Shown piece by piece: positions 1 through 2,039 of a stretch of DNA of 64,000 nt; positions within the stretch are counted from its first letter, which is position 1, and each line of letters starts with the position of its first letter. The position numbers and the translations under genes are program-made. This DNA is from Promethearchaeota archaeon (GTDB lineage Archaea > Asgardarchaeota > Lokiarchaeia > Sigyniarchaeales > SOKP01). The notes under the pieces are model-generated. The model was not told the origin of the DNA, did not search any database, and saw only the letters and a program-made list of their open reading frames with translations. Where the stretch lies: the NCBI GenBank assembly GCA_030599585.1, contig JAUVNS010000012.1, positions 32,001-96,000 on the forward strand, given 5' to 3'.

Positions 1-328
1 TCTTTACTTTTTTCTCTTCGTTGTTCAATTGGACTAATCCATCAGTATCAATCGTCTCTAATCCTAAGTTTCGGGCTTCTAATAGAATTTCATCTGAAGC
101 TATTACACATACATTGGGTTTATCACTTGTTACAGTATTGTTAGGTAGTACTATTTCCTTGTCTATCCTCTGTTTAGGGTCGTTTAAATTAAGGTCTTTC
201 AGATTAATAATTAAATCAATTGATTCGTCAAATTTCCTAACCTTATCTTTAAATCCCTCCTTTTTTATAACAGAGTGCTCGATAGCTGCGTTAATCGATT
301 TCTTTAACAATTTATCGTCAACTTTCAT
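1..328 (-). CDS. rpl1: 50S ribosomal protein L1 (uL1), 3'-truncated by the window edge
   Basis: Not in the ORF track. Manual translation from ATG at 328 gives MKVDDKLLKKSINAAIEHS...RKFDESIDLIINLKDLNLNDPKQRIDKEIVLPN...VCVIASDE, the typical archaeal L1 N-terminus. It lies 3 nt downstream of rpl11. Confidence 0.95.
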   Translation of the reverse strand, partial: MKVDDKLLKKSINAAIEHSVIKKEGFKDKVRKFDESIDLIINLKDLNLNDPKQRIDKEIVLPNNTVTSDKPNVCVIASDEILLEARNLGLETIDTDGLVQLNNEEKKVK

Positions 329-331
329 ATT

Positions 332-866
332 TTACATCTCCCCCTGAATTTTATCATCATATTCTCCAGCGTCAATTCTTTTTTGTATATCTCTTGGATT
401 ACTACCCTCAACTGTTGCACCAATAGAAAGAGCTGTTCCTATAACAGTTTTTACAGCGTTTTTGAAAGTTTTAGCTAAGAATATGTCCTTTTTAGCGTTT
501 GTAACAGTAATCACCTGTTCAAGAGTTAAATCACCAGATTTCTGTTCAGAACTATTTACGCTTCCTTTTTCTATTCCCAATTCCTTCAAGAGGAGTGAAG
601 CTGTACTTGGGGTTTCTACGAAAATCTCAAATTGCTTGGTTTCAGGATCGCACTCAATTCTAATTGGGACGGTTAATCCCTTAAAAAGCATGGTTTTTTC
701 GTTAACGGCGTCCACTACGTCCTTAATGTTTGCATAGAAAATTGACTTAATTTTCATTTATGCCAGTAGGACCTACGGCAGGCCCAATAGGGGGACCACC
801 ACTAGCAGCGCCGCCTGTGACTTGAGCATGTACAACCACGCGCCCTTTTTCCTTCTCTTTACTCAA
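332..866 (-). CDS. rpl11: 50S ribosomal protein L11 (uL11), split gene: exon1 866..758, exon2 729..332 (168 aa after splicing; an alternative in-frame GTG start lies at 875)
   Basis: Exon1 from TTG at 866 reads MSKEKEKGRVVVHAQVTGGAASGGPPIGPAVGPTGI, the hallmark L11 GG-A-GPP-GP motif. Exon2 reads NIKDVVDAVNEKT...TPSTASLLLKELGIEKGS...GTALSIG. The two parts are out of frame unless the 28 nt at 730..757 are removed. Confidence 0.93.
730..757 (-). other. Putative 28-nt bulge-helix-bulge (tRNA-endonuclease-type) intron in rpl11 mRNA
   Basis: Minus strand: GTCCTACTG-GCAT-AA^A-T-GAAAATT-AAGTC-AATTTTC-T-ATGC-AA^A-CATTAAGGAC. It has a 4-bp central helix GCAT/ATGC, two 3-nt AAA bulges, a 7-bp intron stem and an imperfect exon-exon stem. 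Cutting after the 2nd nt of each bulge gives GGC ATA AAC ATT AAG (G-I-N-I-K). Confidence 0.85.
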
Positions 867-1190
867 TTTATTCACTCTTTTTGTTAAATTAACTATTTAA
901 AGCCTACATTTTAAAACGCAGAACAAATTATTTGATTCAAACCAAAATTTCCAATATCTTTAATCATATCGGAACCGTAATCGTTTACGTTCTAAGTTTT
1001 GAAAAATATAGACTTAACTTAGTAAATTGCTAAATGAAGTGAACCTAAAAAATTTTATGAAATTTCACAATTGTTGTCGATCTGAATTTATTTATCTTAT
1101 TAATGATATGATTATTTGAGAAAAAGAAAAGAGTAATTTCAGAGCCAAATCTATTCAAATTTAAGAATTTTTAAAGGTTAAGATTTAACG

Positions 1191-2039
1191 ATGATAATCT
1201 GGATTCTAAATAGCGAGTCGGGTATAAAAATATTATATAAATCATTTTTGAAAACAGATGCTGATGAGGATATTGTATCTGGTTTTCTAACAGCTTTCCA
1301 TCATTTTTCTATGGAAGAATTTCATCAATCGTTAGAATCTATAGAAATGGGGGGTTTAAGATGGATTTACATATTAGAACCAAAATTTAAGTTGTTATTT
1401 GTTGTTGCAGATGTAAAAGAAGTAAAAACTGAGATTTTAATGGGCAGGCTTAATGTGTTAAAAGAAGCCTTTTTAAAAGAATTCGAAAAAGTTTGGATTA
1501 AAAAAAAACATAGTTGGGATGGGAATATGAAGATTTATATGCCATTCCTTAAAGTAATAGAAGATTATTACGGTCAGTGGGAGGAAGTGGAATCATTAAC
1601 CCAAGTCGCAGATTTTTTCGATATTTTAGGGGTATTTCAGCAGATTTTTATCTTGTTAAGAAACATTTTAGAAAAAAAAATGTACACTAAATCAAAACAC
1701 ATAATCTTAGATCGAATACAAAAAGTTTACAACAATTTTAGAGAAGAGGAAGAGTACAAATCACAACCCGAATTGGAAAATATTACTTTTTCTAAAGAAT
1801 CTTGGTTTAACATTATTGATATTAACTTGTTAAAGTGCGAAAAAGAAGTAATCACGAAATATTTAAAGTTGTTCCTTCACGGAACAGTTTCAATTTTAAT
1901 AAAAGTTAAGGGTAAAAATTTGTGTTTAAAATACTTTCATGAAGAAAGAATTTACTCTTATATTTACAATAACATGGGACTCTTAAAGGATTTAAATTTA
2001 GACATGTTTTTTTTAAAATTATTTTTATTACTCAAGTAA
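1191..2039 (+). CDS. Longin-like domain protein (N-terminal longin plus helical C-terminal region)
   Basis: N-terminus IWILNSESGIKILYKSF...DEDIVSGFLTAFHHFSMEEF...SIEMGGLRWIY...LLFVV matches the Asgard longin-like pattern. Confidence 0.7.
   Translation: MIIWILNSESGIKILYKSFLKTDADEDIVSGFLTAFHHFSMEEFHQSLESIEMGGLRWIYILEPKFKLLFVVADVKEVKTEILMGRLNVLKEAFLKEFEKVWIKKKHSWDGNMKIYMPFLKVIEDYYGQWEEVESLTQVADFFDILGVFQQIFILLRNILEKKMYTKSKHIILDRIQKVYNNFREEEEYKSQPELENITFSKESWFNIIDINLLKCEKEVITKYLKLFLHGTVSILIKVKGKNLCLKYFHEERIYSYIYNNMGLLKDLNLDMFFLKLFLLLK

What the first reader, a model, noticed from the sequence alone, without database searches (positions are those of the whole stretch)
719..772. Bulge-helix-bulge intron interrupting the ribosomal protein L11 coding sequence in an Asgard-like archaeon
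Seen in sequence: the conserved L11 N-terminus (TGGAASGGPPIGPAVGPTG, from TTG 866) runs into a TAA at 749..747, while the rest of L11 (NIKDVVDAVNEKT...) continues in another frame. The intervening minus-strand RNA folds as follows. An exon-exon stem GUCCUACUG/CAUUAAGGAC (one mismatch, one bulge) is followed by a 4-bp central helix GCAU(763-760)/AUGC(735-732). Two 3-nt AAA bulges (759-757 and 731-729) sit on opposite strands. After one U-U pair comes a perfect 7-bp stem GAAAAUU/AAUUUUC closing an AAGUC loop. Established: the archaeal splicing endonuclease EndA cuts after the 2nd nt of each bulge and RtcB ligates. Applying that rule removes exactly 28 nt (757..730) and yields GGC ATA AAC ATT AAG = ...GPTG-I-N-I-K..., an intact 168-aa L11 with no extra or missing residues expected. 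Structure and reading frame are independent tests and they agree. Such introns are well known in archaeal tRNA/rRNA. In mRNA the classic case is the crenarchaeal cbf5 intron, and I do not know of one in rpl11 or in Asgard archaea. Inference: this lineage splices mRNA with its tRNA machinery, and other 'frameshifted' or N-truncated genes in Lokiarchaeia may hide similar micro-introns. This is relevant to pre-spliceosomal intron evolution and to non-conventional HAC1/XBP1-type splicing.
Basis: partly seen in the sequence, partly recalled or inferred. Interest (0 to 1): 0.96.

Follow-up and report, generated by a model that had tools for sequence, protein, structure and literature searches.

The report
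tRNA-type mini-intron splitting Asgard rpl11
The only gene for ribosomal protein L11 in this Asgard (Loki-type) archaeon is broken by a 28-base insert shaped like the introns archaea cut out of tRNAs, so its messenger RNA very probably has to be spliced; papers describe this inside an archaeal coding sequence for only one other gene (cbf5).

Summary
On the minus strand, rpl11 runs 866..758, is broken by 28 nt (757..730) and resumes at 729..332. The insert and its exon flanks form a canonical bulge-helix-bulge (BHB) motif. Cutting after the second base of each bulge gives GGC-ATA-AAC-ATT (G-I-N-I), the junction seen in uninterrupted orthologues.

It is the genome's only rpl11. The genome encodes an alpha-like and a beta-like EndA subunit and an intact RtcB.

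In 58 interrupted rpl11 genes from the same family of Promethearchaeota MAGs I found 75 inserts at four nearby sites, with zero to three per gene. At protein-compatible boundaries, 65 of 75 have a perfect 4-bp central helix with 3-nt bulges. The hairpin shows compensatory changes. Carriers of this intron always use GGC-ATA at the junction. Exon 1 is under purifying selection.

Frameshifting, ribosomal hopping, a split protein, a pseudogene and an assembly artefact all fail.

This scan has already reported the same rpl11 introns in sister genomes, and other mRNA introns in this genome. In papers, only cbf5 is documented. Verdict: a new member of a known kind, of high interest.

The parts
758..866 (-). 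rpl11 exon 1 (TTG start at 866..864; an upstream in-frame GTG at 875 is an alternative start). It encodes the L11 N-terminal motif up to ...GPTG-I plus the first base of the Asn codon.
   Evidence: TTG 866 aligns with the ATG of relatives. Exon 1 has pN/pS 0.11 in intron carriers.
730..757 (-). The 28-nt BHB intron. Its first base is the third base of the 5' bulge, and its last two bases are the first two of the 3' bulge. It carries the in-frame TAA at 749..747.
   Evidence: An identical insert is present in the independent MAG G002.
332..729 (-). rpl11 exon 2 (coding 729..335, stop 334..332). It holds the rest of L11_N and the L11 RNA-binding domain.
   Evidence: PF00298 at 2.4e-17; PF03946 profile positions 26-58.
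764..772 (-). 5' strand of the outer (exon-exon) helix, GUCCUACUG.
   Evidence: Cells in this helix are 73.6% paired across 26 distinct sequences.
760..763 (-). 5' strand of the 4-bp central helix, GCAU. It is exonic (Gly-Ile codons GGC AUA).
   Evidence: Paired in 26 of 26 sequences. GGC-ATA is used by 29/29 carriers but only 7/41 non-carriers.
757..759 (-). 5' bulge AAA. The predicted cut lies between 758 and 757.
737..755 (-). Inner hairpin: stem 755-749 / 743-737 (7 bp) and loop AAGUC at 748-744.
   Evidence: Seven of the 8 inner-stem pairs show compensatory changes.
732..735 (-). 3' strand of the central helix, AUGC (intronic).
   Evidence: The variants GUGC and AUGU keep pairing through G-U.
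729..731 (-). 3' bulge AAA. The predicted cut lies between 730 and 729.
   Evidence: The second bulge base varies freely in relatives (A/U/G/C), while the third is the exonic A.
719..728 (-). 3' strand of the outer helix, CAUUAAGGAC, with A723 bulged.
2..328 (-). Start of the downstream gene of the operon, probably rpl1 (named from its position after rpl11 and my own reading of the translation; no family search was run). It runs off the window.
   Evidence: 109-aa open-ended ORF beginning MKVDDKLLKK.

Best explanation
Window 757..730 (minus strand) is a 28-nt archaeal BHB intron inside the coding sequence of the single rpl11 gene of a Promethearchaeota (Loki-type Asgard) archaeon.

Proposed mechanism:
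1. In the pre-mRNA, exon bases 772-760 pair with the intron's 3' end (735-732) and with exon-2 bases 728-719. The intron's middle forms a 7-bp hairpin.
2. This presents two 3-nt bulges, 4 bp apart, on opposite strands.
3. The heterotetrameric (alpha-beta)2 splicing endonuclease cuts after the second base of each bulge.
4. RtcB joins the exons and probably circularises the intron.
5. The product is an mRNA for a 168-aa L11 reading ...GPTG-I-N-IKD.

What is shown: the geometry, the exact frame restoration, conservation and covariation, and the presence of the enzyme genes. What is inferred: cleavage, ligation, the enzyme's subunit type, and that splicing is obligatory.

The intron belongs to a set of micro-introns at four sites within 54 nt of rpl11. 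These sites lie in a stretch of repeated Gly-Pro codons (GGNCC). Those codons are self-complementary and supply the exon-exon helices, which I infer is why this stretch is a hot spot.
For: Geometry and frame:
- Searches show the motif, and one search shows the intact orthologue junction GPTGINIKD.
- all 29 inserts at this site, all 21 at site A, all 6 at site C and 9 of 19 at site B have a protein-compatible boundary with a 4/4 central helix and 3-nt bulges. The other 10 site-B inserts have 3/4.
-, register control: 65/75 in the canonical register against at most 20 in any shifted register.

Covariation:
- The central helix is paired in 26 of 26 distinct sequences.
- Seven of 8 inner-stem pairs show compensatory changes.
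- 85% of cells are paired, against 25-40% when partners are slid.

Exon constraint and selection:
- Carriers always use GGC-ATA (29/29) against 7/41 of non-carriers.
- Exon 1 has pN/pS 0.11.

Genome context:
- rpl11 is single-copy.
- EndA alpha-like (catalytic His present) and beta-like (His absent) genes are present, as is RtcB.
- Asgard archaea are reported to have (alpha-beta)2 EndA with the broad-specificity L1 loop (PMC5829648).

Distribution:
- 24 genomes outside the family are uninterrupted.
- Within the family, genomes carry from zero to three inserts.
Against: No transcript, circular intron or peptide was seen.

The spliced-junction 26-mer was not found in public metagenome contigs.

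In 28 of 29 inserts at this site, the exon-2 frame stays open across the insert. For this site alone, a frameshift that adds 9-10 residues is therefore not formally excluded.

The outer helix is imperfect: one mismatch and one bulged base here, and 74% of cells paired across relatives.
Confidence: 0.88

Rival explanations
1. Programmed ribosomal frameshifting or stop-codon read-through carries the ribosome across the insert. The result would be an L11 with about nine extra residues.
For: In the window, the exon-2 frame is open from 757 onwards. A +1 shift between 758 and 750 would therefore join the frames. The same holds for 28 of 29 inserts at this site.
Against: Insert lengths at orthologous sites fall in all classes mod 3: site D 28, 29 and 31 nt; site A 28-38; site B 30-36. 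Different species would therefore need a +1 shift, a -1 shift or read-through. All 18 in-frame inserts carry in-frame stops. At sites A to C, the downstream frame is open across the insert in only 14 of 46. The model does not predict the conserved 4-bp helix with two 3-nt bulges or the compensatory stem changes.
Confidence: 0.04
2. Translational bypassing ('hopping', as in phage T4 gene 60). The peptidyl-tRNA would take off at AAU (758-756) and land on AAC (730-728).
For: In the window, matching Asn codons flank the insert, a stop codon and a hairpin follow the take-off site, and the product would be the same.
Against: The matching codons follow simply from both bulges being AAA. In relatives whose 3' bulge is AUA, AGA or ACA, the landing codon would be UAC/UAU, GAU or CAC, not Asn. 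At site A the Ser codon AGU exists only after joining AG|U.
Confidence: 0.02
3. The gene is dead or split: either a pseudogene, or L11 made as two separate polypeptides (42 aa plus 141 aa starting at ATG 757).
For: A 141-aa ORF with an ATG starts inside the insert. Gene callers have deposited such truncated 141-aa proteins.
Against: This is the only rpl11 in a genome rated 100% complete. Exon 1 is under purifying selection in carriers (pN/pS 0.11, pS 0.59). The ATG is not conserved in other inserts at this site. Genes with two or three inserts would leave 23-29-nt micro-exons, which cannot be separate proteins.
Confidence: 0.03
4. The insert is an assembly or binning artefact.
For: The genome is a MAG with 8.9% estimated contamination. 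I could not map raw reads.
Against: The identical 28 nt occur in an independently assembled MAG (G002, isolate ABR04). Diverged versions occur at the same codon in 27 further genomes, with compensatory changes.
Confidence: 0.01

Closest known systems
BHB intron in the cbf5 (pseudouridine synthase) pre-mRNA of Desulfurococcales and Sulfolobales (Watanabe 2002; Yoshinari 2006; Yokobori 2009, PMC2738675)
   Same: Both are short introns inside an archaeal protein-coding sequence. [quoted passage not shown] Both occur in hosts with a hetero-oligomeric EndA. Both are present or absent among related species.
   Different: The gene differs (rpl11, a core ribosomal protein), and so does the lineage (Promethearchaeota/Asgard rather than Crenarchaeota). 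This motif is canonical, whereas most cbf5 motifs are relaxed. There are four alternative sites within 54 nt and up to three introns per gene, with 23-29-nt micro-exons; cbf5 has one site. cbf5 splicing was shown by cDNA, while this case rests on sequence comparison only.
Archaeal tRNA and rRNA BHB introns (hBHBh' motif; Marck and Grosjean 2003)
   Same: The motif and cut rule are the same, the same enzymes are expected, and the size falls within the range of tRNA introns.
   Different: The host RNA is an mRNA. The 5' strand of the central helix and both outer strands are codons, so the structure constrains synonymous sites (GGC-ATA in 29/29 carriers).
BHB intron in the 5' UTR of Haloferax volcanii HVO_1309 (PMC7714728)
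   Same: EndA acts on an mRNA.
   Different: That intron lies in the untranslated leader, so it does not interrupt the reading frame.
IRE1-dependent HAC1/XBP1 splicing
   Same: It is spliceosome-independent removal of a short frame-changing intron from an mRNA, followed by RtcB-type ligation (in animals).
   Different: The cut sites there lie in 7-nt loops of twin hairpins recognised by IRE1, not in 3-nt bulges 4 bp apart. Nothing here suggests regulated, stress-dependent splicing.

Membership tests
Archaeal BHB (hBHBh') intron | Two 3-nt bulges on opposite strands, separated by a 4-bp helix | tested here: met
   GCAU/AUGC with AAA bulges. Among relatives, 65/75 inserts have 4/4 pairs in this register, against at most 20 in any shifted register.
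Archaeal BHB (hBHBh') intron | Flanking helices on both sides of the motif | tested here: met
   The inner stem is 7 bp, with compensatory changes at 7 of 8 positions. The outer helix has 8 pairs plus one mismatch and one bulged base, and is 74% paired across relatives.
Archaeal BHB (hBHBh') intron | Cuts after the second base of each bulge give a functional product | tested here: met
   The predicted junction GGC-ATA-AAC-ATT equals the uninterrupted orthologue junction GPTGINIKD, and the product is 168 codons.
Archaeal BHB (hBHBh') intron | The host encodes the splicing endonuclease and the RtcB ligase | tested here: met
   There are two PF01974 genes (200 and 201 aa), one with and one without the catalytic His, and one intact PF01139 gene.
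Archaeal BHB (hBHBh') intron | Spliced RNA, a circular intron or in vitro cleavage is observed | not testable with these tools
No spliced twin was found among metagenome contigs.
cbf5 pre-mRNA intron family | The intron sits at the catalytic Asp codon of cbf5 | tested here: not met
   The host gene is rpl11. It works like the cbf5 intron but is not a member of that family.
Programmed translational bypass (T4 gene 60 type) | Matched take-off and landing codons flank the gap | tested here: not met
   Codons match in the window. They do not match in relatives with 3' bulges AUA, AGA or ACA, nor at site A, where the Ser codon is created only by joining.
IRE1-type (HAC1/XBP1) intron | Cut sites lie in 7-nt loops of two hairpins | tested here: not met
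   The cut sites lie in 3-nt bulges 4 bp apart.

The most novel reading that the evidence does not exclude
Loki-type Asgard archaea of this family routinely splice protein-coding messages with the tRNA-splicing enzymes, and the introns are still moving. rpl11 alone has four sites, up to three introns per gene and micro-exons of 23-29 nt. On a tree of the uninterrupted part of the gene, the window's site needs at least 20 gains or losses among 27 carriers, and almost identical genes differ in intron content. That pattern would mean an active mechanism of intron gain and loss in mRNAs of the closest prokaryotic relatives of eukaryotes, for example reverse splicing or gene conversion.
Probability: 0.4. 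Interest if true: 0.88.

Novelty: new member of a known kind. Interest (0 to 1): 0.78.

Why it matters
In the papers I could search, EndA-dependent splicing inside an archaeal coding sequence is documented for one gene, cbf5 of Crenarchaeota. One further case lies in a 5' UTR (PMC2738675, PMC7714728).

Here an essential ribosomal protein of an Asgard archaeon could not be made without such splicing. Relatives carry up to three such introns in the same gene. This has three consequences:
- mRNA splicing by the tRNA machinery would be a normal part of gene expression in the lineage nearest to eukaryotes.
- Intron gain and loss in protein genes could be studied in a well-sampled natural system.
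- Gene callers truncate or split such genes. The public databases hold 141-aa 'L11' proteins that begin inside the intron, so genome completeness estimates and annotations of these archaea are affected.

Tried and rejected

Search for a spliced copy:
- The spliced-junction 26-mer gave no match in metagenome contigs.
- A protein-based scan of metagenome contigs returned only DNA-like contigs. The closest ones (92-95% identity over exon 2) are intronless relatives, not spliced twins.
- None of the 120 listed database proteins equals the spliced product of any of the 58 interrupted genes.

Genome-wide census:
- I required a strict BHB (4/4 central helix, inner stem at least 7 of 8, outer helix at least 3 of 5) that also joins two broken ORFs.
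- It gave 52 hits, and a mirror-image decoy motif also gave 52. The rpl11 intron was among the true hits.
- The test therefore cannot show how many other genes carry such introns.

General covariance model: the MAFFT alignment put sites C and D one column out of register, so I built no model.

Copies elsewhere: blastn found no other copy of the intron in the genome, so it is not a repeat family by sequence.

Rfam: no family matches window 1..1400.

uppS in this genome: I confirmed a 30-nt stop-containing hairpin inside the DGN|RRW motif, but could not fit a canonical register to it.

Rejected readings: frameshift, hop, split protein, pseudogene and artefact (see rival explanations).

Full report
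**What is in the window**

On the minus strand an ORF starts at TTG 866. An in-frame GTG at 875 is an alternative start. It reads ...VTGGAASGGPPIGPAVGPTG-I-N-E-N and stops at TAA 749..747. A second frame, open from 757 to the stop at 334..332, carries IKDVVDAVNEKT... and the rest of L11.

Pfam places L11_N profile positions 1-25 on the first piece. Positions 26-58 and the L11 RNA-binding domain fall on the second.

The RNA between the two pieces has the following structure:
- an outer helix 772-764 / 728-719, with one C-U mismatch and one bulged A;
- a central helix GCAU 763-760 / AUGC 735-732;
- AAA bulges at 759-757 and 731-729;
- a U-U mismatch followed by a 7-bp stem closing the loop AAGUC.

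RNAfold recovers the hairpin, the central helix and the distal part of the outer helix at -13.9 kcal/mol; the centroid adds two more outer pairs. Shuffled sequences average -6.9 (z = -3.1), and none of 200 shuffles folds as well.

I checked the strand arrangement against the textbook pre-tRNA case. There each bulge lies 3' of its central-helix strand, and the 3' bulge abuts the exon helix. The arrangement here is the same (my own knowledge of the tRNA case).

Cutting after the second base of each bulge removes 757..730. This yields GGC-ATA-AAC-ATT and a 168-codon gene (109 + 395 nt).

**Is it the working gene?**

The genome is 4.85 Mb in 52 contigs and is rated 100% complete with 8.9% contamination. 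It has no other L11_N match.

It encodes two EndA-domain proteins of 200 and 201 aa on different contigs. One keeps the catalytic His and the other lacks it. This fits the (alpha-beta)2 enzyme with the broad-specificity loop reported for Asgard archaea (PMC5829648). The subunit assignment is my reading of the motifs and was not tested. One intact RtcB gene is present.

Relatives are named Promethearchaeota or Promethearchaeia MAGs. The nearest one, isolate ABR04, carries the identical 28 nt. That excludes an assembly artefact.

**Comparative evidence**

All 24 genomes sampled outside the family have an uninterrupted L11_N. Within the family (135 genomes, 13 genera), interrupted genes occur mainly in three genera.

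I fetched 58 interrupted genes and located their inserts by homology to intact genes. There are 75 inserts at four sites, all within 54 nt:

| Site | Position (aa) | Inserts | Length (nt) |
|---|---|---|---|
| A | 16/17 | 21 | 28-38 |
| B | 24/25 | 19 | 30-36 |
| C | 28/29 | 6 | 28-30 |
| D (the window's site) | 33/34 | 29 | 28-31 |

Genes carry one, two or three inserts. Twenty have D alone and three have A+B+D.

Among boundaries compatible with the protein alignment, every A, C and D insert has a placement with a 4/4 central helix and 3-nt bulges in the canonical register. So do 9 of 19 B inserts, and the other 10 have 3/4. As a control, 65 of 75 inserts reach 4/4 in that register, and no more than 20 do so in any of 48 shifted registers.

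Four independent sites obeying one cut rule, each restoring the conserved sequence, is the strongest argument.

**Covariation and exon constraint at the window's site**

I compared 26 distinct site-D sequences:
- The central helix is paired in all of them; the variants GUGC and AUGU pair through G-U.
- Seven of 8 inner-stem pairs show changes on both sides.
- 85% of cells are paired, against 25-40% when partners are slid by 1-3 columns.
- No shuffle reached the observed covariation score. The sequences are related, so this is not a probability.

The exon strand of the central helix is the Gly-Ile codon pair. All 29 carriers use GGC-ATA, while only 7 of 41 non-carriers do. This is either selection for pairing or co-inheritance with the intron; relatedness inflates the contrast.

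The second base of the 3' bulge is intronic and varies freely.

Exon 1 is under purifying selection in carriers: pN/pS is 0.11 at pS 0.59.

**Rival explanations**

- *Frameshifting or read-through.* Insert lengths at each site fall into two or three classes mod 3: all three at sites A, B and C, and two at site D. All 18 in-frame inserts contain in-frame stops. In 54 of 75 inserts the upstream frame stops inside the insert. No single recoding event fits all of them.
  - One caveat applies to site D. There the exon-2 frame is open across the insert in 28 of 29 cases, so a frameshift adding 9-10 residues cannot be formally excluded for this site alone. Such a model explains neither the BHB geometry nor the compensatory changes.
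- *Hopping.* In the window, Asn codons flank the gap. This follows from both bulges being AAA, and it fails in relatives with other bulge bases and at site A.
- *Split protein.* The ATG at 757 is not conserved, and multi-intron genes would leave micro-exons of 23-29 nt.
- *Pseudogene.* The gene is single-copy and under selection.

**Dynamics**

I built a maximum-likelihood tree of the uninterrupted part of the gene (89 rows, quick search; many forks are unresolved). On it, site D needs at least 20 changes among 27 carriers, site A 16 among 21, site B 12 among 17 and site C 4 among 6. Nearly identical rows differ in intron content.

A single short gene cannot separate gain, loss and recombination. 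The pattern is nonetheless far from simple vertical inheritance.

The four sites sit in three tandem 12-nt units coding G-P-x-x. Their GGNCC codons are self-complementary and form the outer helices at sites B, C and D. I suggest this is why the stretch is a hot spot; that is an inference.

**What could not be done**

- The junction 26-mer is absent from public metagenome contigs.
- The closest metagenome contigs are intronless relatives.
- A structure-plus-ORF census of the genome gave 52 hits against 52 for a mirror decoy. I therefore cannot say from my own data how many other genes are affected.
- I did confirm that uppS is cut inside DGN|RRW by a 30-nt hairpin with a stop codon.

**Comparison with what is known**

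The literature I searched documents coding-sequence BHB introns only in crenarchaeal cbf5, plus one 5' UTR intron in Haloferax. A 2009 paper notes that introns in other protein genes had been predicted but not confirmed (PMC2738675). A 2026 preprint on Asgard tRNA introns does not mention mRNAs.

This scan's own notes already report the same rpl11 introns in sister genomes, and other mRNA introns in this genome. None has RNA evidence.

I file this as a new member of a known kind. It works like the cbf5 intron but lies in a different gene and lineage, in multi-site and multi-intron form.

Noticed in passing
whole genome G000: ARAGORN recognises only 21 tRNA genes, several with doubtful introns, in a genome rated 100% complete. 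This fits the report that Asgard tRNA genes are heavily interrupted by non-canonical introns.
   Followed up: no
L101:2140-2200 (G000 contig C41, minus strand): The uppS gene is interrupted inside its catalytic DGN|RRW motif by a 30-nt hairpin carrying a TAG stop. I could not fit a canonical 4-bp-helix/3-nt-bulge register to it, so it may be a relaxed motif.
   Followed up: partly
window 730-757 and the same site in 28 relatives: The exon-2 reading frame stays open across the whole insert in 28 of 29 site-D introns, but in only 14 of 46 at the other three sites. This may reflect shared ancestry and base composition, or it may mean something.
   Followed up: no
rpl11 codons 21-33 (window about 765-803, minus strand): The intron hot spot is a triple 12-nt repeat coding GPPI/GPAV/GPTG. 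Sites B and C occupy equivalent positions in successive units, and both use GGNCC/GGNCC as the exon-exon helix.
   Followed up: partly
hairpin loops of inserts at all four sites (for example L059, L074, L069, L033): Many inserts at different sites share a U/A-UCG motif at the 3' side of the hairpin loop. This hints at common descent or a shared requirement. The window's copy has GUCA instead.
   Followed up: no
L063 (G083) site D: One site-D intron is 31 nt long and has a quite different G+C-rich hairpin, while keeping the same central helix and bulges.
   Followed up: no
public protein databases (P0005, P0035 and others): Truncated 127-142-aa 'L11' proteins that start inside or after an intron are deposited for many of these MAGs. 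Gene callers therefore mis-annotate the gene.
   Followed up: no
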